This document shows, one piece after another, positions 6,961 to 24,910 of a stretch of DNA of 24,941 bases (position 1 is its first letter; each line of letters begins with the position of its first letter). The stretch lies in UHGV virus genome UHGV-0019275; one strand, 5' to 3'. Source of the stretch: a virus. Below the pieces are notes generated by a model. The model was given only the letters and a program-made list of their open reading frames with translations, did not search any database and was not told the DNA's origin. Both the position numbers and the translations under genes were made by a program.

Positions 6961-7243
6961 CGCTATCCCCCTGTTGTGACTTAAAGCGGCGCTGAATGGC
7001 GATTTCCACCACCTGATAACCTGCAATGCCGAGCATGGATCCAATCCCACAAACGGCAGGCAGTGACATATCTGGAAACTGCACCAGAACAACACCGGCG
7101 ACCATTGAAACAAAACCGCCGAGCAGCATGCGGCCGATAAACAGGCGCGGGGTAATGGGCTCACCACCCGCCAGCACTTTTCCGACAACAATCATCACGC
7201 CAATCACAAACAGTGACAGGACGCCTTTTTCCCCTTCTGTCAT
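6947..7243 (-). CDS. Y: Holin, P2 gpY-like
   Basis: 98 aa with hydrophobic helices (LSLFVIGVMIVVGKVLAGG; LLGGFVSMVAGVVLV) and a charged C-terminus; sits between X and K. Confidence 0.75.
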   Translation of the reverse strand: MTEGEKGVLSLFVIGVMIVVGKVLAGGEPITPRLFIGRMLLGGFVSMVAGVVLVQFPDMSLPAVCGIGSMLGIAGYQVVEIAIQRRFKSQQGDSDADH

Positions 7244-7246
7244 GGT

Positions 7247-7450
7247 TTACTCCCAAAGGTTGATAGTTTCTGTTACGGGTGACGATGCCACGTCGGGCAG
7301 GTCAATCGCCGTGCCATGCGGCAGAATGACGCCCAGCTCAGACAGACCGGGATTAGCCTGCAGCACCGTCTCGACCACGCCCTCAGTGCGCCCGTAATAC
7401 CGGGCGCAAAGCGCGTCGAGGGTGTCACCCTGCATCGCGTAGACTTTCAT
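7247..7450 (-). CDS. X: Tail protein X (LysM-like)
   Basis: Start at ATG 7450 (MKVYAMQGDTLDALCARYYGRTEGVVETVL...), 67 aa, matching P2 gpX length and sequence; ATGA overlap with the stop of L. Confidence 0.85.
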   Translation of the reverse strand: MKVYAMQGDTLDALCARYYGRTEGVVETVLQANPGLSELGVILPHGTAIDLPDVASSPVTETINLWE

Positions 7451-7959
7451 CAGAGCTGACCCACGATGCAGCGCGGCTTGTCCTGCAGACGCGAGACCGA
7501 CCAGCGCATATCCCGCCACAGGTCATCAATGGTGGTTTCGACGCTGTCGGCTTTTTTGTCACCCTTACCCGTGGCCTCAACCCCGCGATAACGCTCATAC
7601 AGGGTGGCGGTCGCCATCGCCGTCACGGCGCTGAGGTAGTGGAAAACGCGCACATTCTCGCCGTCGATTTCCTCGGCGTCAGGCACGTCGGCCAGTGTCT
7701 TAAACCCTGCGGCAATCTGGCGCAGCCGGTAGTCGTAAAGCTCCGCATTGGTTTCCGCCATGCCGGTCTTGATGGCGTTGCGCAGGCGCGCATCGGAAAC
7801 CGTCTGCTCAAGGCGCATCAGTTCGCGCACCCGCTTCGGATCCACATCAGGGAAAAAGAACGTGTTTTTAATCACTGCGTCGCCCGTCTCCGGTGCGGGA
7901 ATCACCACGCCCGGTACGTCCTGCGGTTCGTCGGGCTGATTCAGTATTACTGTCGTCAT
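7450..7959 (-). CDS. L: Head completion/stabilization protein L
   Basis: 169 aa; P2 gpL-like; position between M and X. Confidence 0.9.
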   Translation of the reverse strand: MTTVILNQPDEPQDVPGVVIPAPETGDAVIKNTFFFPDVDPKRVRELMRLEQTVSDARLRNAIKTGMAETNAELYDYRLRQIAAGFKTLADVPDAEEIDGENVRVFHYLSAVTAMATATLYERYRGVEATGKGDKKADSVETTIDDLWRDMRWSVSRLQDKPRCIVGQL

Positions 7960-10969: not shown

Positions 10970-12739
10970 ATGACCATTTCCACAGATACAACCTTGTTGC
11001 ATGACCCGCGACGGCAGGCATCGCTGCTTTACTGGCAGGGTTTTTCCGTGCCACAGATTGCCGAAATGCTGCAGGTCAAGCGCCCGACCGTGCAGAGCTG
11101 GAAGCAGCGCGACGGCTGGGACGGCATCGCGCCGATTTCCCGCGTTGAAAGCAGCCTTGAGGCTAGGCTGATTCAGCTCATCGCCAAGCCGCAAAAGACA
11201 GGGGGTGATTTCAAAGAGATTGACCTGCTCGGACGGCAGATTGAACGGTTGGCGCGAGTCAACCGCTACAGCCAGACCGGCAACGAAGCCGACCTTAACC
11301 CCAACGTCGCCAACCGCAACAAAGGGGAGCGCAAAAAGCCGAAAAAGAATTTTTTCAGCGACGAGTCTATCGATAAACTAGAGGAATTATTTTTCGACCA
11401 GTCTTTCGAGTACCAGTTGCAGTGGTACCGCGCAGGACTGGAGCACCGTATTCGTGACATTCTCAAATCCCGCCAGATTGGCGCGACATTCTATTTCTCC
11501 CGCGAGGCACTGCTGCGCGCACTCAAAACCGGCCATAACCAGATATTTTTATCAGCCAGTAAAACGCAGGCTTACGTGTTCCGCGAATACATCATCCAGT
11601 TTGCGCGACTGGTCGACGTTGACCTGACTGGCGACCCGATTGTCATCGGTAACAACGGCGCAAAACTGATTTTTCTCGGTACCAATTCCAACACCGCGCA
11701 GAGCCATAACGGCGATCTGTATGTCGATGAAATATTCTGGATCCCGAATTTTCAGAAACTGCGCAAAGTCGCCTCGGGCATGGCCTCGCAAAAGCACCTG
11801 CGCTCGACCTATTTTTCGACACCTTCCACGCTGGCGCACGGCGCTTACCCCTTCTGGTCTGGCGAGCTGTTCAACAAGGGGCGCAGCCGGATTGCCGACC
11901 GCATCGAAATCGACATCAGTCACAGCGCGCTCGCCGGTGGCCAGCTCTGCGACGATGGCCAGTGGCGGCAGATTGTCACCATTGAGGACGCCCTTGCGGG
12001 TGGCTGCACCCTGTTCGACCTCGACCAGCTCAAACGCGAAAACAGTGATGAGGACTTTAAGAACCTGTTTATGTGCGAGTTTGTCGACGATAAAGCGTCG
12101 GTATTCCCGTTCGAGGAGCTGCAGCGCTGCATGGTCGATGTGATGGAGGAATGGGAGGACTTTGCCCCGTTCGCCGACCATCCGTTCGGCTCTCGTCCTG
12201 TCTGGATTGGCTACGACCCGTCACACACCGGCGACAGTGCCGGGTGCGTCGTGCTCGCGCCGCCGGTGGTCTCTGGTGGCAAGTTCCGCATGCTGGAGCG
12301 CCACCAGTGGAAGGGCATGGATTTTGCAGCACAGGCAGAGGGCATCCGCAAGCTGACCGAGAAATACAACGTTGAATACATCGGCATTGACGCAACCGGC
12401 CTCGGTCTCGGCGTGTTCCAGCTGGTGCGCTCATTTTACCCGGCGGCACGCGGCATCCGTTACACACCTGAAATGAAAACCGCAATGGTACTCAAGGCGA
12501 AAGACACCATTCGCCGTGGCTGTCTGGAGTACGACGCCGGAGCAACCGACGTCACGCAGTCGTTTATGTCCATCCGCAAAACCATGACTAGCAGCGGGCG
12601 CAGCGCCACCTATGAGGCCAGCCGCACCGAGGAAGCCAGCCACGCCGATATCGCATGGGCGACCATGCACGCCCTGTTAAACGAACCGCTTTCTGCCGGT
12701 AGCGGCATGCAGCCTAAATCTATTCTGGAGTTCAACTAA
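10970..12739 (+). CDS. P: Terminase ATPase (large) subunit P
   Basis: 589 aa; P2 gpP-like; divergent from O across a 165-bp late-promoter region. Confidence 0.95.
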   Translation: MTISTDTTLLHDPRRQASLLYWQGFSVPQIAEMLQVKRPTVQSWKQRDGWDGIAPISRVESSLEARLIQLIAKPQKTGGDFKEIDLLGRQIERLARVNRYSQTGNEADLNPNVANRNKGERKKPKKNFFSDESIDKLEELFFDQSFEYQLQWYRAGLEHRIRDILKSRQIGATFYFSREALLRALKTGHNQIFLSASKTQAYVFREYIIQFARLVDVDLTGDPIVIGNNGAKLIFLGTNSNTAQSHNGDLYVDEIFWIPNFQKLRKVASGMASQKHLRSTYFSTPSTLAHGAYPFWSGELFNKGRSRIADRIEIDISHSALAGGQLCDDGQWRQIVTIEDALAGGCTLFDLDQLKRENSDEDFKNLFMCEFVDDKASVFPFEELQRCMVDVMEEWEDFAPFADHPFGSRPVWIGYDPSHTGDSAGCVVLAPPVVSGGKFRMLERHQWKGMDFAAQAEGIRKLTEKYNVEYIGIDATGLGLGVFQLVRSFYPAARGIRYTPEMKTAMVLKAKDTIRRGCLEYDAGATDVTQSFMSIRKTMTSSGRSATYEASRTEEASHADIAWATMHALLNEPLSAGSGMQPKSILEFN

Positions 12740-12740
12740 A

Positions 12741-13787
12741 ATGGGTAAACAAAAATCCCGTAAAGCCAACGCACAAAAGGCCAGCAAACCACAACAACTG
12801 ACCGCCAGCGCACCGCCAAAAACGACAGCGTTCACCTTCGGCGAGCCGGTGCCGGTACTCGATAAGCGCGACATTCTGGATTACGTCGAATGCATCAGTA
12901 ACGGCAAATGGTACGAGCCGCCGGTCAGCTTCTCAGGGCTGGCAAAGAGCCTGCGCTCTGCCGTGCATCACAGCTCGCCAATTTATGTTAAGCGTAACGT
13001 GCTCGCGAGCACCTACATTCCGCACCCGTTGTTATCCCGTCAGGATTTCAGCCGCTTTGCGCTCGATTATCTGGTGTTCGGTAACGCCTTTCTTGAGCAG
13101 CGCCACAGCGTCACCGGCCAGTTAATCAAACTGCTGGCCTCGCCAGCCAAATACACCCGACGCGGAGTCGACGATTCGATTTTCTGGTTTGTGGAAAACT
13201 TCACCCAGCCGCACGAGTTCGCGCCTGATACCGTGTTTCACCTGCTGGAGCCCGACATTAATCAGGAGATTTACGGTCTGCCGGAATATCTCAGCGCGCT
13301 TAATTCCGCTTGGCTGAATGAATCCGCGACGCTGTTCCGCCGCAAGTATTATCAGAACGGCGCGCACGCAGGCTACATCATGTATGTGACTGACCCGGCG
13401 CAAAGTGCGACCGACGTCGAATCGCTGCGCGAGGCGATGCGTAACTCGAAGGGACTCGGCAACTTTAAGAACCTGTTTTTCTACGCCCCCGGCGGAAAAC
13501 CGGACGGCATCAAAATCGTGCCACTGAGCGAGGTCGCCACAAAGGATGACTTTTTCAACATTAAGAAAGCCAGCGCCGCCGACCTGATGGACGCGCACCG
13601 CGTACCGTTCCAGCTCATGGGCGGCAAGCCCGAGAATATCGGTTCACTCGGTGACGTTGAGAAGGTGGCAAAGGTATTTGTGCGCAATGAGCTGTCGCCG
13701 CTACAGGACAGGTTCAGGGAGGTAAACGACTGGCTCGGCATGGAGGTCATCAGGTTCAAAGAGTACACCCTCGATAATCCGGAATAA
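12741..13787 (+). CDS. Q: Portal protein Q
   Basis: 348 aa; P2 gpQ-like; starts 2 nt after the stop of P. Confidence 0.9.
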   Translation: MGKQKSRKANAQKASKPQQLTASAPPKTTAFTFGEPVPVLDKRDILDYVECISNGKWYEPPVSFSGLAKSLRSAVHHSSPIYVKRNVLASTYIPHPLLSRQDFSRFALDYLVFGNAFLEQRHSVTGQLIKLLASPAKYTRRGVDDSIFWFVENFTQPHEFAPDTVFHLLEPDINQEIYGLPEYLSALNSAWLNESATLFRRKYYQNGAHAGYIMYVTDPAQSATDVESLREAMRNSKGLGNFKNLFFYAPGGKPDGIKIVPLSEVATKDDFFNIKKASAADLMDAHRVPFQLMGGKPENIGSLGDVEKVAKVFVRNELSPLQDRFREVNDWLGMEVIRFKEYTLDNPE

Positions 13788-13797
13788 TCACCACTCT

Positions 13798-13816
13798 AGC
13801 CGCCAGCATGGCGGCT
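13798..13816. terminator. GC-rich hairpin between convergent Q and cargo operon (possible bidirectional terminator, no clear U-tract)
   Basis: AGCCGCC-agcat-GGCGGCT inverted repeat lying exactly between the Q stop (13787) and the cargo gene stop (13818). Confidence 0.25.
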
Positions 13817-13817
13817 C

Positions 13818-14543
13818 TCAATCGTGAGTGGATATTTGCGAAACAAACTCTTTAACTCCATCTCGTTCAAGTATTTTACTGTCATGGATATACTTTACGA
13901 TATCCCACTCGTAGTATGTACAAGCCATTGCAACTAAAGATATTATTTTTATGTCAGTTAAGTTAACTAATGTTTCATAATAATCTTCCCGTTCAACCCC
14001 GCAATTATCTATCAACTTCACAATCAAATAAAAGCGACGCACCACTGAAAAAATGCAATCATTAGCATCCACTTCACTTAACCACTTTGTTATTACCTCT
14101 TTTTTTACCTTGGCTTTAACTAAAATTACAATATTATCTTCAAGATAAGTTACGGCTGCACCACTTGTAAATTCTTCGACCACCCCGTCAGTTTGTCCAT
14201 CAATATCACCAACTTGAACACAAAACCTTTCAAAGTTAGAATCCTGACATTCAACCAAATGGAAAAATCTCACTTCAAATTTTTTATACTCTTCTAAAGA
14301 TTCTTGCCTTTTTACTTCATCGATCAGGCTGGAATTAGCCTCCCTTTGAAGTTTTATTGAATTTATAAGGAGGTAAATTGTAATAAATGAAAGTATAGGG
14401 TTGACGACACCACCCAAATAATCACCAAACTGCGCCCAAACATCAGTCTTGCTGGATAAATGTCCGTTTACTCCGAAGTTGAAGTAATACAAGGCGCACA
14501 CAGCTACAATCACGCCAGCCGAAGACAGCAACACCTTTCTCAT
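13818..14543 (-). CDS. Cargo protein B: 241-aa protein with two predicted N-terminal TM helices, function unknown (candidate membrane effector)
   Basis: ATG at 14543 overlaps the stop of the upstream gene (ATGA); hydrophobic segments VIVAVCALYYFNF and VVNPILSFITIYLLINSI; AT-rich codon usage unlike the phage backbone; no family recognised. Confidence 0.7.
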   Translation of the reverse strand: MRKVLLSSAGVIVAVCALYYFNFGVNGHLSSKTDVWAQFGDYLGGVVNPILSFITIYLLINSIKLQREANSSLIDEVKRQESLEEYKKFEVRFFHLVECQDSNFERFCVQVGDIDGQTDGVVEEFTSGAAVTYLEDNIVILVKAKVKKEVITKWLSEVDANDCIFSVVRRFYLIVKLIDNCGVEREDYYETLVNLTDIKIISLVAMACTYYEWDIVKYIHDSKILERDGVKEFVSQISTHD

Positions 14544-15358
14544 ACAGTTTCAACCATACGGATTAGATATTTCACCACATCACCACTTTTTACTACAACT
14601 TTGCTAACAGTAAGTTTTAGATATGTGTAGTTATCTTGCCTGCCATTATTATTGTGTAAATTTAATGAGACCAATCTTTTTTGAGCGGCGGGTATAGCCT
14701 TTAAAGGCATGTAAAAACCAAAGGCTACTGTATCATCTTCACCTTCGATAACTAACCTACCATTTCCAGTTCTCGCATTAAATCGAGTAATAACTGCGTT
14801 AATATTAACTTGACCGGGCTTTATTTTTGATTGTGTCAAGTTTGTAGCAGTCATTGTGTCTAACTTTGCTATTCTTTGTTTTCCAGCAGGTTTTTTATAG
14901 TTAAGTTCAACATCAAAGTTTTTTTGAAGATTTATCCTATGCATCCTTACCAAAGGTTGTCTGATACGATCAATAAGTTCATCTTCAATTTCCTCAAGCT
15001 CCTCAATAATTCCTGCAGCTTTTGGAGATAGCTCCTTAGTTTCCAGATATAGAGATTCAGAAATAAAATACCCCATGACTTCCGAGAACACAGAACGGGT
15101 CATTTTTTTTAATTCGGCAGCTAATTCCGGCTCATTAACAATCAAGTCGAAGTTTTGACCATAAGAACTTTTAAAGCTTTGTTTGAGAACCGCTCGCGCA
15201 GGGTTAACATGAGTGCGGCGCTTAATAATTTTTTTTCTGAGTATTGCCTCTGCTAGTATGCATGTCACCTCAGCCGTTCCAGAGAGGGTATCAAGGCCAT
15301 ACTCCATATCAACTTCTTGATCACCACTTTTGATGACAACGTCATAGCTAACTTTCAT
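14540..15358 (-). CDS. Cargo protein A: 272-aa soluble protein, function unknown
   Basis: ORF track starts at GTG 15364, but ATG 15358 has a good SD (AAGGA, 7-nt spacing); no nucleotide-binding or nuclease motif recognised by eye; AT-rich. Confidence 0.7.
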   Translation of the reverse strand: MKVSYDVVIKSGDQEVDMEYGLDTLSGTAEVTCILAEAILRKKIIKRRTHVNPARAVLKQSFKSSYGQNFDLIVNEPELAAELKKMTRSVFSEVMGYFISESLYLETKELSPKAAGIIEELEEIEDELIDRIRQPLVRMHRINLQKNFDVELNYKKPAGKQRIAKLDTMTATNLTQSKIKPGQVNINAVITRFNARTGNGRLVIEGEDDTVAFGFYMPLKAIPAAQKRLVSLNLHNNNGRQDNYTYLKLTVSKVVVKSGDVVKYLIRMVETV

Positions 15359-15466
15359 CGGCACATCCTTGATTTAGTAACCTTTGGTTATTATTTTTCA
15401 TCTTCTACTCATTGACACCGATTTTTTACACCAAAAATATCAAATTGCAAGTGTGTGCTGCGCGCA

Positions 15467-15485
15467 ATGCTTTCCCCGCCACGCC
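15467..15485 (-). other. cos cohesive-end site (186/P2 type)
   Basis: Minus-strand 19-mer GGCGTGGCGGGGAAAGCAT differs at 2 positions from the P2 cohesive end GGCGAGGCGGGGAAAGCAC (from memory) and matches my recollection of the 186 cohesive end; placed between portal side and replication side as expected. Confidence 0.55.
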
Positions 15486-15644
15486 TGCCCGCTTTACGGG
15501 GCGGTTTTAATGCAGTTGCATGAACACTCGGGATCCGCGCCAGCTCTGGCGGCGCACGGTCAGAACGGGCAACCCCTGCGAATGCAAAAGCATGCACCTG
15601 TTGCATGCACGGCTAAAAACGGGGAAATCGCGGAAAAATGGCAT

Positions 15645-15809: not shown

Positions 15810-16001
15810 TTATTTGTGCATTCTAATGTGGTTTAACAGGTGTTTGATAACGACCGTAAGCTCATCTTTACTGGCTTGCTCGACCATTTTTTCGGTGTAG
15901 CTTTCCACCTCACGAGAACTCAGGTCGTTATTTGAAGCCATTACGGTCAGCTTTTTTGCCCAATCGGCAAACGGGTCTATCGATGAAAGGGAATTATGCA
16001 T
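15810..16001 (-). CDS. Hypothetical small protein (start uncertain; overlaps the start of the divergent 143-aa ORF)
   Basis: ORF with ATG at 16001 preceded by a GAGG SD; tightly divergent from the + ORF so only one may be real. Confidence 0.2.
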   Translation of the reverse strand: MHNSLSSIDPFADWAKKLTVMASNNDLSSREVESYTEKMVEQASKDELTVVIKHLLNHIRMHK

Positions 16002-16431
16002 GTCCAAAAACCTCGAATTATTTAACCAGCAGACGGCGGAAATTTTTGCGGTGTTATGGGATAACTTCCCGGTGCCGCAGGTCATCACCTACGAAAAATT
16101 TAACGCCGTGCTACCTGATGACTACTTTGACCAACTTAACTCACCGGAAATGAAAGCACTGAATCAGTTGCGTAGTGTGGTTGAGGGTACATTCACTTTT
16201 CTCAGTGAAAACGGCTACATCCAATATGAAACAGACCATCAGACTTATTTTCGGGATGTGCGCCTGACCGAGAAAGCACTCGCCGTGCTCAACAAAAAGC
16301 CCGAGGCACTCGGCGGTAGTGAAACGATGGGCGATAAGATTATCAGTGCGGTGAAAGACGGGGCACCCGGAGTTATTGCAGGTGCGGTGACAAACCTGCT
16401 TTCACTCGGTGTCAATCTGGTAACCAACTAA
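16000..16431 (+). CDS. Hypothetical 143-aa protein with hydrophobic Gly/Ala-rich C-terminal tail
   Basis: ATG at 16000 with AGGGA SD about 9 nt upstream; plausible composition; C-terminus GAPGVIAGAVTNLLSLGVNLV; no family recognised. Confidence 0.4.
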   Translation: MSKNLELFNQQTAEIFAVLWDNFPVPQVITYEKFNAVLPDDYFDQLNSPEMKALNQLRSVVEGTFTFLSENGYIQYETDHQTYFRDVRLTEKALAVLNKKPEALGGSETMGDKIISAVKDGAPGVIAGAVTNLLSLGVNLVTN

Positions 16432-16498: not shown

Positions 16499-16732
16499 TT
16501 AATGCAGCCAGCTATCGTCCTCCCATACCTGCTGCATGATTTCCATTACTCGTTTTTTATCTTCGTCCAGTTTCAAACCGCTTAGTTCAACGCCATTAGC
16601 GGAGCCCTTGCGAATTCGGATAGCAGTCTTTGGGTAAATAGGTTGAAGATTGCGGTACAGTTCAGCCTCAAGTGCATCCAATGTTGCCTGACTAATTTTT
16701 TGCTCTTTATCCAACGTGATATTGATTCTCAT
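16499..16732 (-). CDS. DinI-like protein (SOS-regulated; corresponds to the DinI-like part of the 186 Tum antirepressor)
   Basis: 77 aa, MRINITLDKEQKISQATLDALEAELYRNL...MEIMQQVWEDDSWLH, resembles the E. coli DinI family (MRIEVTIAK...ALAGEL.RR...EILQETWE..DDWF) from memory. Confidence 0.75.
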   Translation of the reverse strand: MRINITLDKEQKISQATLDALEAELYRNLQPIYPKTAIRIRKGSANGVELSGLKLDEDKKRVMEIMQQVWEDDSWLH

Positions 16733-17031: not shown

Positions 17032-19254
17032 TTACTCATGTATTGGTTTTGATTCTTCAGCCATCGCCGCAACACGATTAAGGATTTTCCGAGCTTTAGC
17101 CTCATGCGATGGTGCTGCGGAAAATATTTCTCCTTTGGCCGTTCCGCGTAGCCATTTACCATCAAAACAACTTTTACCACCGGCCATCAGGTGCAGGGCT
17201 TCGCCCCGGCTGATATTAATGCCGGTTGTCAGATGTATCTCATCGATAGTTTTAGCTATAGCTGCGTTTTGCTCATCCGTTCCGTGGATGAATTTTCGCC
17301 GTGCTGCTGGCTTTTGCTTCCTGAGTCGGTTGGTCAATTCTCGTCTTTCACGCCGACTCAGTGGTTTTGTTAAATCCAGTATCGGTGGATCGCTTTCGCT
17401 TCCCGTACAGTTATTGACAGAACTCCGAGGGACGGCTTTGCCGTCCTGAAGGTCAACGGCCAAATCAACAGCACGCTTCGGAACAATCTTCCACTGAGTG
17501 AGCCGGGTTAAAATCGGGCTTCCTGCACCTATGGAGGAATCGTAGACCCCCTTAATACATACCGTTTCCTCACCGTACTGATTAAGCTCGGTACGCGGTT
17601 CATACAGTGTGCGCACCTGTAAATCATCGCGACGGACAAACGGCCCACCCTGAGCATTAACATAACCAGCCCAGTCACCAGCGTCGGCGGCATCATGGAC
17701 GGCGGCAAACTCAACGCTCAGACCGTGCGCGGTTTCGGTATCAGCGAGGCGACGCAACTCACGGTAAACCGTCACCGGCGCACCACCAATAAACTGAAAC
17801 TGACGGATGTGCCAGCGCGCAGCCCATGCTGAAACGGCGGGGGCTGTCTCTTTCAGCAGCTCACCGCTTTCATCATCGGTTTCACCATCGAGAGCATAAC
17901 CGTCGATATTTTTTGAAATGTATTTAGCAACATAGCCGGTTGCGCTGCCTTTCTCCGGGTCAATGGACTCCGCGTGGAAACGTGCTTTTTGGGATTTATC
18001 GCTTTTCAGTTCGTGGCGGTCTTCTTTCCATGCGTATTTACGGACGATGGAGCGAACATATTCAACATCTTCCGGCAGCATGAACATCAGCATGTGCCAG
18101 TGTGGAGTGCCGTCGTGATGGGGCTCGGCGACACGAATACCGAAAATACGGACATCTTCCCGATGTAGTTTGGCACGGATACGCGCCCAGATACCGGTTA
18201 GATAGTTTTGCGTGTCAGCCGGGCTGGCACCGCTCCATTTGCTGTTACGGTAACCGGCTTTAGTCGTGGCGTGATATTTTGACGGCGCGGTTAGAGTGTA
18301 AAACTCACCGACATAACCGAGCTCATTACAGATGTTTTCAAACCCACGAATGCGGGTCATGAGCTCACAGCGGCGAATCGCAGGGTTAGCAACTGAGCCA
18401 TCATATTTTTCAATTAGGCTGATACGGTTGCCGTCTTCGTCTTCGAGATCCAGACCTTTGAGAAATTCACGAGTGCGGCGCTTTTGTTCACGCCAGTCAG
18501 TCACGCAGTTTTTACTCGCGTAAGTGTTTTTTTTCTTACTGACGTTGCCGACTGCAATTTGCAGGTGTTCGCGCCACGTAGCTGCTACACGGCGCAAACG
18601 ACCGCGCCACCACCCATCGTTAAACATTTTGGCGATAGCCGGTGCGATTTCATCCGCACCGACATATTTTTTTTCAACCCGCTCCCAATGTGGTGGGATA
18701 ACGTTGAATTGGAGGGAAATAAAGCCAGCACGAATATACCAGGTGTACAGCGTTTTAAGCTCGCCGAATCCGTGGTCATTAATGTTGGCAAGTTCACCAC
18801 GAATGAAATTAGCAATATCAGCGGCCAACAGGTCAACATCAGCGCGCGACATGTCCGGGAGACGGTTATATCGGGCGACCATATTAACCATGCGTGACGA
18901 CAGATATTGCATTTGCTGAGTATCAAAATGACTTCCAAAAACAGCGGTTGATACCTTGCTGTTGATACCAGCGCATTCGTATTTTTTTGCGACCAGTTCA
19001 AGACGCGGCAATGCCTTTTTGCAGAAGCTGATTAAAAATGCATTGGCTCGTTGACTACCCTGATTTTGTTCCAGCACCGCAGCAGTGCGATAAACATCTA
19101 ACCGCACGCAGTCGGGCTGGAGAGAAAGCACCTTTTTTGCATGCAGCAAAGCCGCGAACATACGGTCGCGGCGATGCTGTTGCTCATAAGTAAGGTATGG
19201 GCTGGAGATTGCCGACCGTGGGACGTTCCACGGATAAGCGAATTGAACAGCCAA
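17032..19254 (-). CDS. A: Replication initiation endonuclease A (rolling-circle initiator)
   Basis: 740 aa; conserved blocks (YTLTAPSKYH; VAEPHHDGTPHWHMLMF; GYVAKYISKNIDGYALDG) match P2 gpA from memory; initiator codon at 19254 is TTG, 1 nt after the upstream stop (coupled). Confidence 0.95.
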   Translation of the reverse strand: MAVQFAYPWNVPRSAISSPYLTYEQQHRRDRMFAALLHAKKVLSLQPDCVRLDVYRTAAVLEQNQGSQRANAFLISFCKKALPRLELVAKKYECAGINSKVSTAVFGSHFDTQQMQYLSSRMVNMVARYNRLPDMSRADVDLLAADIANFIRGELANINDHGFGELKTLYTWYIRAGFISLQFNVIPPHWERVEKKYVGADEIAPAIAKMFNDGWWRGRLRRVAATWREHLQIAVGNVSKKKNTYASKNCVTDWREQKRRTREFLKGLDLEDEDGNRISLIEKYDGSVANPAIRRCELMTRIRGFENICNELGYVGEFYTLTAPSKYHATTKAGYRNSKWSGASPADTQNYLTGIWARIRAKLHREDVRIFGIRVAEPHHDGTPHWHMLMFMLPEDVEYVRSIVRKYAWKEDRHELKSDKSQKARFHAESIDPEKGSATGYVAKYISKNIDGYALDGETDDESGELLKETAPAVSAWAARWHIRQFQFIGGAPVTVYRELRRLADTETAHGLSVEFAAVHDAADAGDWAGYVNAQGGPFVRRDDLQVRTLYEPRTELNQYGEETVCIKGVYDSSIGAGSPILTRLTQWKIVPKRAVDLAVDLQDGKAVPRSSVNNCTGSESDPPILDLTKPLSRRERRELTNRLRKQKPAARRKFIHGTDEQNAAIAKTIDEIHLTTGINISRGEALHLMAGGKSCFDGKWLRGTAKGEIFSAAPSHEAKARKILNRVAAMAEESKPIHE

Positions 19255-23693: not shown

Positions 23694-24464
23694 TTATGAT
23701 GGTAATTCTATTTCATCATGATCATCAACTTTTTCAAAGTCACCGGCTTTAATTGGGACAGGTTTAAGTTCAATTTCACCGAAACCCATTGGGAAAAGAC
23801 TATGAGTAGTGTCTTGTTTGCAAAAATAAGATACCAAATCAAATCCACAGGAAACTTTTTTTATAAAGTCATCTGATAGTAAAATGCATAAAAAAGATGA
23901 GTCTTCTTTTGTTTCTGTGTTTTTCTTTGTTGTCTTGGGGTGAATTATGTCATTTCTAAGTGACTCAAGGCTTTTAAAATCTTGCCATAGTTTTGAACCT
24001 TTAGGTGAATCACAATTTAAAATAGACGGTAGGATTTTATCTATTTTTTCACTTGTTGGTATATATCGCTCAATTAGCTCTTTGCTATAGGATTCTTTGA
24101 TTCCCTTGGCATTGTTTTTTTCATAAACATAATCATGTGGTATGCATATATTTGCAAAAGACTCAATTGCAGTATACATAGAAATAATGGCCGTCTGAAT
24201 TGATTCAAAGTAATTATAGAGTCTCGGCAGGTCTTTGTCGGAAATTTTAAAGTTTTTATGTTTGGTTTTGTGTATTTTTCCAAAAAGACTTTTATATATA
24301 GAATTGGATTTTGAGAGCTCTTTTTTTGCTGAGGATAAGAATATAGAAACGTTATTTGGGGTGAAAAAACTAACTGTCGCACCAGATAATGTGGCTTTAT
24401 CTGACATTTGCAATGTCAAATTTAAATTTTCTTCTTCTATTCTTGCTATGATTGGTCTCTGCAT
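23694..24464 (-). CDS. Hypothetical protein in AT-rich flank beyond int (start uncertain; ORF-track start 24539 is TTG)
   Basis: Long AT-rich ORF; first ATG at 24464 lacks a good SD; contains RNDIIH (an Rx4H, HEPN-like motif); no family recognised. Confidence 0.4.
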   Translation of the reverse strand: MQRPIIARIEEENLNLTLQMSDKATLSGATVSFFTPNNVSIFLSSAKKELSKSNSIYKSLFGKIHKTKHKNFKISDKDLPRLYNYFESIQTAIISMYTAIESFANICIPHDYVYEKNNAKGIKESYSKELIERYIPTSEKIDKILPSILNCDSPKGSKLWQDFKSLESLRNDIIHPKTTKKNTETKEDSSFLCILLSDDFIKKVSCGFDLVSYFCKQDTTHSLFPMGFGEIELKPVPIKAGDFEKVDDHDEIELPS

Positions 24465-24910
24465 CCTGATATCGATAATCTGGATTGTATCCTTTTTTGA
24501 CACGTTCTTCTCCGTGGATGTTTTGTGGTTAAAAAACAATGCTAATTTTAGGATGTTGGGTTTTTAAAAACTGACAACTACTTGGTAATACCTGATTCGT
24601 GCAAAAATAATTTTGAAGCTAATAATTACATTATATCAGGTAAAAATCATATAATGCGTATCAATATTACAACATATACGGAAATTTTCCAACTACCTCA
24701 TGTGTTAGCGTTTCACTCGGGTATACTAAAGTCTGTGTGGTATAAAGCTTTAAGTGGCGGCAAAGTGGCGGCGGAGGTTGCAGAATATTGCAATTCACTG
24801 CATTAAAAATTAAATTAACTAATTGTTTTTATTATAATTATATGTTTTTTATGTGGTTTTATTGGGAGCGTCTTAACTAAGATTTCGCTTAAGCGACATC
24901 CTGTTAAGAA

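What the first reader, a model, noticed from the sequence alone, without database searches (positions are those of the whole stretch)
13788..15466. AT-rich two-gene cargo operon between portal gene and cos: candidate undescribed anti-phage / abortive-infection module
Seen in sequence: a 1.55 kb AT-rich island of two translationally coupled minus-strand ORFs (ATGA overlap at 14540-14543) sits between the portal stop (13787) and the cos-like 19-mer (15467). From memory, P2 has only a few hundred bp there. The first gene (14540-15358, 272 aa) is soluble with no motif I can place; the second (13818-14543, 241 aa) has two N-terminal TM helices followed by a about 170-aa domain. Established knowledge: the cos-flanking interval between portal and replication genes is the P2 old/tin region and a recognised hotspot for anti-phage cargo in P2-like prophages. 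Inference: this pair resembles the sensor-plus-membrane-effector layout of abortive-infection systems, and I cannot match either protein to a named family.
Basis: partly seen in the sequence, partly recalled or inferred. Interest (0 to 1): 0.85.

Follow-up and report, generated by a model that had tools for sequence, protein, structure and literature searches.

The report
AbiC-like two-gene prophage cargo module
Between the portal gene and the cos site of a 186/P2-type E. coli prophage sits a swappable two-gene cassette, a distant relative of the lactococcal abortive-infection membrane proteins AbiC/AbiP always paired with a soluble OB-fold protein, which is very probably an untested anti-phage system in an already known defence hotspot.

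Summary
Window 13788-15466 carries two overlapping minus-strand genes, geneA (14540-15358, 272 aa) and geneB (13818-14543, 241 aa, two TM helices). Their GC is 37% against 55-57% in the flanking phage genes. They lie between the portal stop and a real cos site.

The slot is variable: sibling prophages have it empty, or hold other genes or diverged alleles of this pair. The same pair also occurs in the P4-satellite hotspot, in non-P2 phages and in chromosomal islands. In every complete locus examined, geneA sits directly upstream of geneB.

The pair is not unplaceable.
- **geneB** is a divergent full-length homologue of the AbiC/AbiP (Pfam putAbiC) abortive-infection family (hhalign E 4.6e-41 through intermediates). 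It fails the family HMMs directly.
- **geneA** is a divergent DUF7946-DUF7947 protein with a C-terminal OB fold.
- Rousset et al. 2022 already list the family as an unannotated system (P2 #77, P4 #31). I found no record that it was tested.

Most likely it is a two-component AbiC/P-type abortive-infection or exclusion system, with an OB-fold sensor or regulator and a membrane effector. Function is inferred, not shown. I rate it a new variant of a known kind, of moderate interest.

The parts
15390..15418 (-). sigma-70-like promoter candidate (GTGTCA-17-AATAAT) between cos and geneA
   Evidence: Consensus scan, (9/12 matches; 12 sites found in the region against 4.8 expected, so weak on its own). 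Its position fits an autonomous, moron-type transcription unit.
14540..15358 (-). geneA: 272-aa soluble basic protein (pI 9.2). N-terminal alpha/beta domain (DUF7946-like) plus C-terminal OB fold (DUF7947-like) with the conserved RFNxxTGNGRL hairpin
13818..14543 (-). geneB: 241-aa inner-membrane protein with two N-terminal TM helices, the invariant W-x-QFGDY-x-GG-xx-NP motif, a long helix and an acidic helical cytoplasmic domain. Divergent AbiC/AbiP (putAbiC) homologue
   Evidence: ORF. Hydropathy. Model pLDDT 86.3. hhalign to putAbiC-bearing proteins E 2.9e-25 (N-terminal part) and E 4.6e-41 over 225 columns. The intermediates hit PF16872 (16/25), PADLOC AbiP (12/25) and AbiC (11/25).
14540..14543 (-). 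ATGA stop/start overlap (translational coupling of geneA and geneB)
   Evidence: Spacing of -32 to +8 nt in 17 non-redundant loci.
13799..13815 (.). GC-rich hairpin (GCCGCC-AGCAT-GGCGGC) between the convergent portal and geneB stops
   Evidence: Read from the sequence. Not called by the terminator scan because there is no T-run, so its function is unproven.
15467..15485 (.). cos cohesive-end sequence (186 type), the right boundary of the cargo slot
   Evidence: Related phage genome termini map here.
12741..13787 (+). portal gene (gpQ homologue), the left boundary of the slot
   Evidence: PF04860.

Best explanation
The interval is an autonomous, horizontally acquired two-gene operon (a 'moron') in the cos-proximal defence hotspot of a 186/P2-type prophage. 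It most likely acts as a two-component abortive-infection or phage-exclusion system of the AbiC/AbiP kind.

**Shown**
- geneA and geneB are an obligately linked, co-diverging pair.
- geneB is a two-TM inner-membrane protein remotely but clearly homologous, over its full length, to the AbiC/AbiP (putAbiC) family.
- geneA is a cytoplasmic basic protein with an unmatched N-terminal domain and a C-terminal OB fold.
- The cassette occupies a slot that is empty or differently filled in sibling prophages. It also occurs in the P4 satellite hotspot.

**Inferred**
- In the lysogen the pair is transcribed from its own promoter.
- geneA is the sensor or regulator. Its OB-fold hairpin (RFNxxTGNGRL) may bind a phage-derived nucleic acid or protein. 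It may dock on the acidic cytoplasmic domain of geneB.
- On infection by another phage, geneB is released or activated. It then either perturbs the membrane through its conserved Asp/Gly/Pro-containing TM2, or blocks late phage gene expression, as reported for AbiC and AbiP. The result is an aborted infection.
For: **Linkage**
- 10/10 full-length geneB homologues in species-representative genomes have geneA directly upstream.
- So do all further loci fetched.
- So do 32/33 IMG/VR loci; the exception is cut by a contig end.
- Pairwise identities of A and B correlate at r=0.86 over 17 loci.

**Hotspot and variability**
- Only 14 exact and 22 diverged copies occur in 5426 complete E. coli genomes.
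- Sibling prophages with the same or a near-identical portal have 178 bp, a DUF2188 gene, a 334-aa gene or an AAA ATPase in the slot.
- A 58%-identical allele sits in the same slot. The pair lies between cos and portal in Pectobacterium as well.
- 23 IMG/VR loci lie next to a P2-type portal.
- The pair follows psu-delta in a P4-like element of Pantoea. It also occurs in a non-P2 Klebsiella phage.
- Neighbours elsewhere include Mrr, HSDR_N, ParDE, Fic and resolvase genes.

**Family**
- hhalign of geneB against putAbiC-bearing intermediates gives E 4.6e-41 over 225 columns. Those intermediates hit PF16872, AbiP and AbiC.
- AbiC and AbiP are experimentally validated Abi proteins with N-terminal TM helices (PMC13064643).

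**Prior probability**
- 6 of 8 unknown P4 loci were active in PMC13586616.

**Charge complementarity**
- geneA family median pI is 8.9. The geneB cytoplasmic domain has median pI 4.7.
Against: - No experiment exists for this pair in the literature I could search.
- No PADLOC model (2023) hits either protein beyond a weak ZorB-TM similarity.
- geneB fails the PF16872, AbiC and AbiP HMMs directly, so homology rests on profile-profile bridging.
- AbiC and AbiP are single-gene systems whose own mechanisms are unresolved, so homology transfers little mechanism.
- Some copies sit between housekeeping genes, as in Chromobacterium.
- About two thirds of the hotspot systems tested by Rousset showed no activity on their 8-phage panel.
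Confidence: 0.6

Rival explanations
1. A toxin-antitoxin or addiction module. geneB would be a membrane toxin, constitutively neutralised by geneA. Its main role would be to stabilise the prophage or island rather than to sense phage.
For: Tight translational coupling with the putative neutraliser upstream. Strict co-inheritance. Opposite net charges. The cassette persists in a degraded prophage in strain S3. A ParDE module neighbours it in one island.
Against: Both proteins are large for a classical type II TA pair. Homologous AbiC and AbiP work as single genes without an antitoxin. In Denitrovibrio geneB is split by an IS while geneA is intact; this fits either reading. TA and Abi functions are not mutually exclusive.
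Confidence: 0.12
2. A constitutive superinfection-exclusion device at the inner membrane. geneB, helped by geneA, would block DNA entry or early steps of incoming phages without killing the cell. This is defence, but not abortive infection.
For: It is a prophage-encoded inner-membrane protein expressed from its own promoter. The most conserved motif lies at the predicted periplasmic loop/TM2 boundary. P2-hotspot systems can act against P2 relatives.
Against: Its homologues AbiC and AbiP act after DNA entry, on capsid protein production and on early transcript switch-off. A cytoplasmic OB-fold partner is not obviously needed for an entry block.
Confidence: 0.15
3. A function in the phage's own life cycle, such as a cos/packaging accessory, lysis timing or lysogeny control. 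Its place next to cos and portal would suggest this.
For: It is immediately adjacent to cos and the portal gene.
Against: It is absent from most sibling prophages and from all 50,697 deposited phage genomes at DNA level; only one distant protein relative was found, in a non-P2 Klebsiella phage. The slot can be empty. The pair also occurs in P4-like satellites, non-P2 phages and plain chromosomal sites. Its AT-rich composition is foreign.
Confidence: 0.04
4. Lysogenic-conversion cargo unrelated to phages, for example a membrane stress, ion homeostasis or host-interaction function.
For: No direct functional evidence exists. A weak MotB/ZorB-like TM similarity could point to an ion-handling protein. 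Some copies lie outside recognisable defence contexts.
Against: The pair is remotely related to validated Abi proteins. It recurs in two independent defence hotspots, P2 and P4.
Confidence: 0.08

Closest known systems
AbiC / AbiP of Lactococcus (AbiC/P group; Pfam PF16872 putAbiC; PADLOC AbiC, AbiP)
   Same: N-terminal TM helices (two in AbiC) followed by a helical cytoplasmic domain. geneB aligns over 225 columns with putAbiC-bearing proteins (E 4.6e-41), and those proteins hit the AbiC and AbiP models. It is carried on a mobile element. The expected phenotype is abortive infection.
   Different: It fails the PF16872, AbiC and AbiP HMMs directly. It is always encoded with an upstream OB-fold partner, whereas AbiC and AbiP are single-gene systems. 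Its cytoplasmic domain is strongly acidic, whereas AbiP's domain binds RNA/ssDNA. The hosts are Gram-negative.
Unannotated systems #77 (P2 hotspot, 50 occurrences) and #31 (P4 hotspot, 49 occurrences) of Rousset et al. 2022 (PMC9122126, Tables S5B and S1B)
   Same: The same protein family pair: QFGDY...NPIL membrane protein plus ...TGNGRL... protein. The exact accessions WP_073507268 and WP_073507269 appear in their Table S5A.
   Different: There it is only catalogued, with no domain annotation and no name. Its motifs are absent from the table of systems cloned and tested.
Lambda RexA/RexB
   Same: A prophage-expressed pair of a soluble protein of about 275 aa plus a small inner-membrane protein. 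The textbook logic is sensor activates membrane effector, causing abortive infection.
DUF7946 / DUF7947 (Pfam PF25678 / PF25679)
   Same: geneA has sub-threshold matches to both, in the order N then C. 38/53 and 18/53 relatives match them.
   Different: All scores for the window protein are below the gathering threshold (14.5 and 12.9 bits against 27). The DUFs carry no functional information, and no paper in the library mentions them.

Membership tests
AbiC/AbiP (putAbiC, PF16872) | N-terminal transmembrane helix or helices followed by a helical cytoplasmic domain | tested here: met
   Hydropathy peaks at about residues 13 and 52. Model helices 2-24 and 33-104, then a helical domain 127-237. 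AbiC has two TM helices according to PMC13064643.
AbiC/AbiP (putAbiC, PF16872) | Match to the family HMM at or above its cut-off (PF16872 gathering score 22 bits; PADLOC AbiC/AbiP) | tested here: not met
   No PF16872 hit at E<=1 for the window protein. None of 44 relatives hit it at E<=0.1. No AbiC or AbiP hit in PADLOC for any of the 44.
AbiC/AbiP (putAbiC, PF16872) | Homology to bona fide members, detectable by profile-profile comparison over the whole protein | tested here: met
   hhalign A2 against A6: probability 100, E 4.6e-41, 225 columns, geneB residues 1-226. A6 members hit PF16872 (16/25, best 1.5e-26), AbiP (12/25, 1.1e-20) and AbiC (11/25, 1.1e-11). With only 5 intermediates, the C-terminal domain alone gave just a motif-level match.
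AbiC/AbiP (putAbiC, PF16872) | A single gene is sufficient for abortive infection | not testable with these tools
   Here the gene is always paired with geneA. The more distant AbiC-like genes in phages lack geneA. Sufficiency needs an experiment.
P2 cos-proximal defence hotspot cargo (Rousset 2022) | Located between replication gene gpA and portal gene gpQ, next to cos | tested here: met
   Portal 12741-13787, pair 13818-15358, cos 15467-15485, gpA 17032-19254.
P2 cos-proximal defence hotspot cargo (Rousset 2022) | Content varies between otherwise closely related prophages | tested here: met
   The slot is empty, or holds a DUF2188 gene, a 334-aa gene, an AAA ATPase or diverged pair alleles.
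P2 cos-proximal defence hotspot cargo (Rousset 2022) | Confers resistance to phage infection | not testable with these tools
   The pair is not among the systems cloned by Rousset. It is not found in the DefensePredictor tables held or among the new systems of PMC13586616.
DUF7946-DUF7947 proteins | Both Pfam domains at or above the gathering score, in N-to-C order | tested here: inconclusive
   The window protein scores 12.9 and 14.5 bits against a cut-off of 27, in the right order. Many relatives match weakly, and a few have precomputed hits.
RexAB-like two-component Abi | RexA-like fold in the soluble partner and a four-TM RexB-like channel | tested here: not met
Zorya ZorB / MotB stator subunit | Single TM with a conserved Asp, a periplasmic peptidoglycan-binding domain, and a ZorA/MotA partner | tested here: not met
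   There is only a weak TM-segment similarity (ZorB3 E 0.002; 20/44 relatives, best 3.2e-5; NCBIfam PRK09040 E 0.03). There is no OmpA-like domain and no MotA-like partner.
Type II toxin-antitoxin | Toxicity of one product, neutralised by the co-expressed partner | not testable with these tools
   Only the gene order, coupling and charge complementarity are known.

The most novel reading that the evidence does not exclude
The pair would be a previously unrecognised two-component branch of the AbiC/AbiP superfamily. A dedicated OB-fold protein would sense a phage replication or packaging intermediate (ssDNA, RNA or an SSB-like protein). It would then gate an AbiC-type membrane protein whose invariant W-x-QFGD-x-GG-xx-NP TM2 resembles the Asp-bearing MotB/ZorB helix and conducts ions. 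If so, this cassette would give the first mechanistic handle on AbiC-type proteins, whose mode of action has been open since 1992. It would also show that the Q-side of cos is a defence slot of its own.
Probability: 0.2. Interest if true: 0.7.

Novelty: new variant of a known kind. Interest (0 to 1): 0.45.

Why it matters
If the pair is active, it adds a widespread two-gene system to the defence catalogue. There are at least 420 geneA clusters at 90% identity and 95 geneB clusters at 50% identity, found from Enterobacterales to Denitrovibrio. Current detection tools miss it.

It would also link the large, mechanistically opaque AbiC/AbiP family to a separable putative sensor protein. About 6,000 representative proteins share geneB's N-terminal membrane module. 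A two-gene layout makes trigger and effector steps individually testable. It further shows that cargo can be inserted on the portal side of cos, at the very left end of the packaged P2-type genome.

Tried and rejected
**Direct searches that gave nothing**
- Direct Pfam, NCBIfam and PADLOC scans of both proteins: nothing significant.
- PDB sequence searches with family profiles: nothing.
- BFVD search: three uncharacterised two-domain phage proteins, uninformative.
- DNA search of 50,697 phage genomes: no match.

- The afdb50 library was unavailable.
- The search for related loci with the geneA alignment failed for lack of a conserved stretch.

**Weaker versions of later results**
- hhalign of the geneB C-terminal domain against 5 putAbiC proteins gave only a motif-level hit. 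This was later resolved with 25 intermediates.

**Candidate names checked and rejected**
- The new systems Crouga, Bandua, Aernus, Toga, Reve and Hailong.
- The Vibrio integron systems, including the RexAB-like Sucellos.
- The DefensePredictor tables.
- DUF7946, DUF7947 and putAbiC in the literature: no papers.
- RexAB membership and ZorB/MotB membership (see the tests).

**Other**
- I first assumed the window was strain S3. It is not: the sequences diverge left of the head-completion gene.
Full report
**1. What is in the sequence**

The window is part of a phage-186/P2-type prophage of E. coli. Its genes in order are:
- terminase, 10970-12739 (+)
- portal, 12741-13787 (+)
- two minus-strand ORFs, 13818-14543 and 14540-15358
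- a cos-like sequence at 15467-15485
- small ORFs and a DinI gene
- the replication endonuclease gpA, 17032-19254 (-)
- the 186-type early region (TraR, DUF2732, DUF5347, Fil, CII, CI) and the integrase

The two ORFs overlap by ATGA. I call them geneA (272 aa from the ATG at 15358, preceded by AAGGA) and geneB (241 aa). Their GC content is 0.367, against 0.55-0.57 for the portal and terminase genes. A sigma-70-like promoter candidate lies at 15418-15390 on the minus strand. A GC-rich hairpin (13799-15) separates the convergent stops of geneB and the portal gene.

The cos assignment is sound. Related phage genomes deposited as linear molecules (Midge, SEN1, FSLSP004) end at window positions about 15477-15499. 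The 17-mer GCTTTCCCCGCCACGCC recurs at the equivalent place in relatives.

**2. It is variable cargo in a known hotspot**

The 1.68-kb interval occurs at 99% identity or more in only 14 of 5426 complete E. coli genomes. Diverged alleles (64-66% DNA identity) occur in 22 more.

About 150 genomes share the flanking portal end or cos region. In 16 of them the two flanks lie within about 0.9 kb of each other. In sibling prophages, some encoding the identical portal protein WP_000517961, the slot between the portal stop and cos contains:
- nothing but 178 bp (G47-1)
- a DUF2188 gene (AST217)
- an unrelated 334-aa gene (SF-468, PKF8)
- an AAA ATPase (EC6622)

A 58%-identical allele of the same pair fills the same slot in other 186-like prophages. 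A third allele lies next to the portal of a different P2-type prophage. In Pectobacterium the pair again lies between cos and portal.

In IMG/VR, 33 viral contigs carry a full-length geneB relative. 23 of them have a P2-type portal gene convergent and immediately downstream.

Rousset et al. 2022 defined the gpA-to-gpQ interval around cos as the P2 defence hotspot (PMC9122126). This cassette lies on the portal side of cos within that interval.

**3. The two genes are one unit**

- In species-representative genomes, all 10 full-length geneB homologues have a geneA homologue directly upstream.
- The same holds in every locus fetched through geneA: Pseudomonas, Chromobacterium, Pantoea, Denitrovibrio, Thiothrix, Marinomonas and a Klebsiella phage.
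- It also holds in 32 of 33 IMG/VR loci; the exception is cut by the contig end.
- The spacing is -32 to +8 nt. Pairwise identities of the two proteins correlate at r=0.86 over 17 non-redundant loci.

Contexts outside P2 are telling:
- In Pantoea ananatis the pair follows psu and ogr/delta, which is the P4-satellite hotspot.
- In a 46-kb Klebsiella phage it lies in the early region.
- Elsewhere it sits beside resolvase, Fic, HSDR_N, Mrr or ParDE genes.
- In Chromobacterium it lies between housekeeping genes.

**4. What the proteins are**

*geneB.* Direct HMM scans fail. PHROGs knows it only as phrog_8999, of unknown function.

It has two hydrophobic helices, at about residues 4-23 and 43-62. 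By the positive-inside rule the N-terminus is cytoplasmic and the loop is short and periplasmic. An invariant motif, W36-x-Q-F39-G40-D41-Y-x-G44-G45-x-x-N48-P49, lies at the loop/TM2 boundary. A long helix follows, then an acidic helical domain.

A pattern scan showed that the N-terminal 100 residues are shared with many proteins with other C-termini. Some of these carry Pfam PF16872 putAbiC.

An exhaustive profile search found 95 representatives at E<=1e-30, 1208 at E<=1e-10 and 6279 at E<=1e-3. I took 25 intermediates from that search. 16 hit PF16872, 12 hit PADLOC AbiP and 11 hit PADLOC AbiC. geneB's family profile aligns to theirs with probability 100 and E 4.6e-41 over 225 columns, including the putAbiC region.

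geneB is therefore a divergent, full-length member of the AbiC/AbiP superfamily. UniRef already labels a member of its 90%-identity cluster 'Phage abortive infection protein'.

According to a 2026 review:
- AbiC has two TM helices and reduces major capsid protein production.
- AbiP has one TM helix plus an RNA/ssDNA-binding domain and disturbs the early transcript switch.
- Both are single-gene systems, and neither mechanism is resolved (PMC13064643).

*geneA.* It is soluble and basic (pI 9.2). It has sub-threshold hits to DUF7946 (N-terminal) and DUF7947 (C-terminal). These recur in 18 and 38 of 53 relatives respectively.

The family is large, with at least 420 clusters at 90% identity, and uniformly about 274 aa long.

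The family-invariant residues R192, T197, G198, G200 and R201 form the beta1-beta2 hairpin of the OB fold. This hairpin is a usual ligand-binding site in OB folds (established knowledge).

**5. Mechanism**

*Shown:* an obligate, co-diverging, translationally coupled pair. One partner is an AbiC/P-type membrane protein and the other a cytoplasmic OB-fold protein. The pair is carried as swappable cargo in two known defence hotspots.

*Inferred:* it is an anti-phage system in which geneA senses or regulates and geneB executes.

One observation supports a direct A-B contact. The geneB cytoplasmic domain is consistently acidic (median pI 4.7). It is more acidic than in the solitary AbiC/P-like intermediates (median 6.2). 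geneA is generally basic (median 8.9). One reading is that nucleic-acid binding, built into AbiP itself, is supplied here in trans by the OB-fold partner. This is speculation.

A weak but repeated similarity of the TM2 segment to ZorB3/MotB-type models hints at an ion-handling helix with a key Asp (20 of 44 relatives). However, the predicted orientation is opposite to MotB, and there is no MotA-like partner or peptidoglycan-binding domain. I keep it only as a lead.

My probability that the cassette protects against some phage is about 0.6-0.65. For the specific sensor/effector assignment it is about 0.4. The rivals are a TA/addiction role, constitutive entry exclusion, a role in the phage's own cycle, and non-phage lysogenic conversion. 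They are set out separately with tests.

**6. Comparison with the known, and novelty**

The exact proteins appear as 'hypothetical + hypothetical' in Table S5A of Rousset et al. The family is their unannotated system #77 of the P2 hotspot (50 occurrences, '2 TM in protein 1') and #31 of the P4 hotspot (49 occurrences).

Its motifs are absent from their table of cloned systems, so it was not tested there. I also found it neither among the newly named P4 systems of PMC13586616, nor among the Vibrio integron systems, nor in the DefensePredictor tables held here. Those tables are truncated, so absence there is weak evidence.

It works like lambda RexAB in layout but shares no detectable fold or sequence with it.

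What is new here is the link of geneB to AbiC/AbiP, the OB fold of geneA, the strict pairing, and the mapping of the cassette to the portal side of cos. I file it as a new variant of a known kind.

**7. Verdict**

This is a real, well-delimited, mobile two-gene cassette and a good candidate for experimental validation. It is not a categorical novelty. Interest is 0.45.

Noticed in passing
window 23694-24539 (-): An AT-rich (GC 0.31-0.33) ORF of 269-281 aa lies just beyond the integrase and before the chromosomal yfiB. RefSeq annotates it as a hypothetical protein (WP_001394629). It contains an R-N-D-I-I-H (Rx4H, HEPN-like) motif. It may be a second cargo gene in the integrase-att slot that PMC13586616 mentions as a minor P2 hotspot. 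It has no PDB sequence match.
   Followed up: partly
window 15810-16431: On the gpA side of cos there are two partly overlapping, oppositely oriented ORFs: 16000-16431 (+) of 143 aa (phrog_2266) and 15810-16088 (-) of 92 aa (phrog_2454). A DinI gene follows at 16499-16732. All are of unknown function but conserved in sibling prophages, even where the portal-side cargo differs.
   Followed up: partly
window 14360-14460 (geneB residues 28-84): The loop/TM2 segment of geneB weakly matches the Zorya ZorB3/MotB model (E 0.002; 20/44 relatives, best 3.2e-5) and NCBIfam PRK09040 (E 0.03). The motif W-x-x-F-G-D-Y resembles the Asp-bearing start of the MotB TM helix, but the predicted orientation is opposite.
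   Followed up: partly
L065 (E. coli S3, NZ_CP010228 697183-697662) against window 7000-7500: Strain S3 carries the identical cargo pair. Its prophage copy, however, jumps from a truncated head-completion gene straight to the tail assembly genes, so the lysis, baseplate, fibre and sheath genes are missing. The window sequence is intact there and diverges from S3 left of about 7480. The cassette therefore persists in a degraded prophage.
   Followed up: partly
L048 6578-7582 (+), L049 6578-7582 (+), L061 5043-6266 (-): Other occupants of the same portal-to-cos slot are a 334-aa hypothetical protein (SF-468, PKF8) and a 407-aa AAA family ATPase (EC6622). Neither was examined further. Both are candidate cargo of the same slot.
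   Followed up: no
L058 6818-7249 and 10982-11401: In Denitrovibrio acetiphilus the geneB homologue is split by an insertion of transposase genes, while geneA is intact.
   Followed up: no
L050 6717-7535 (-): In Klebsiella phage Kp4865-4 an unannotated 272-aa ORF lies convergent to the pair, with a DinI-like ORF a little further on. It may be a small cargo cluster in a non-P2 phage.
   Followed up: no
window 15485-15504 (+) and 15590-15611 (-): Terminator-like hairpins lie immediately next to cos on the gpA side. They may insulate the cargo slots from read-through across cos in the prophage.
   Followed up: no
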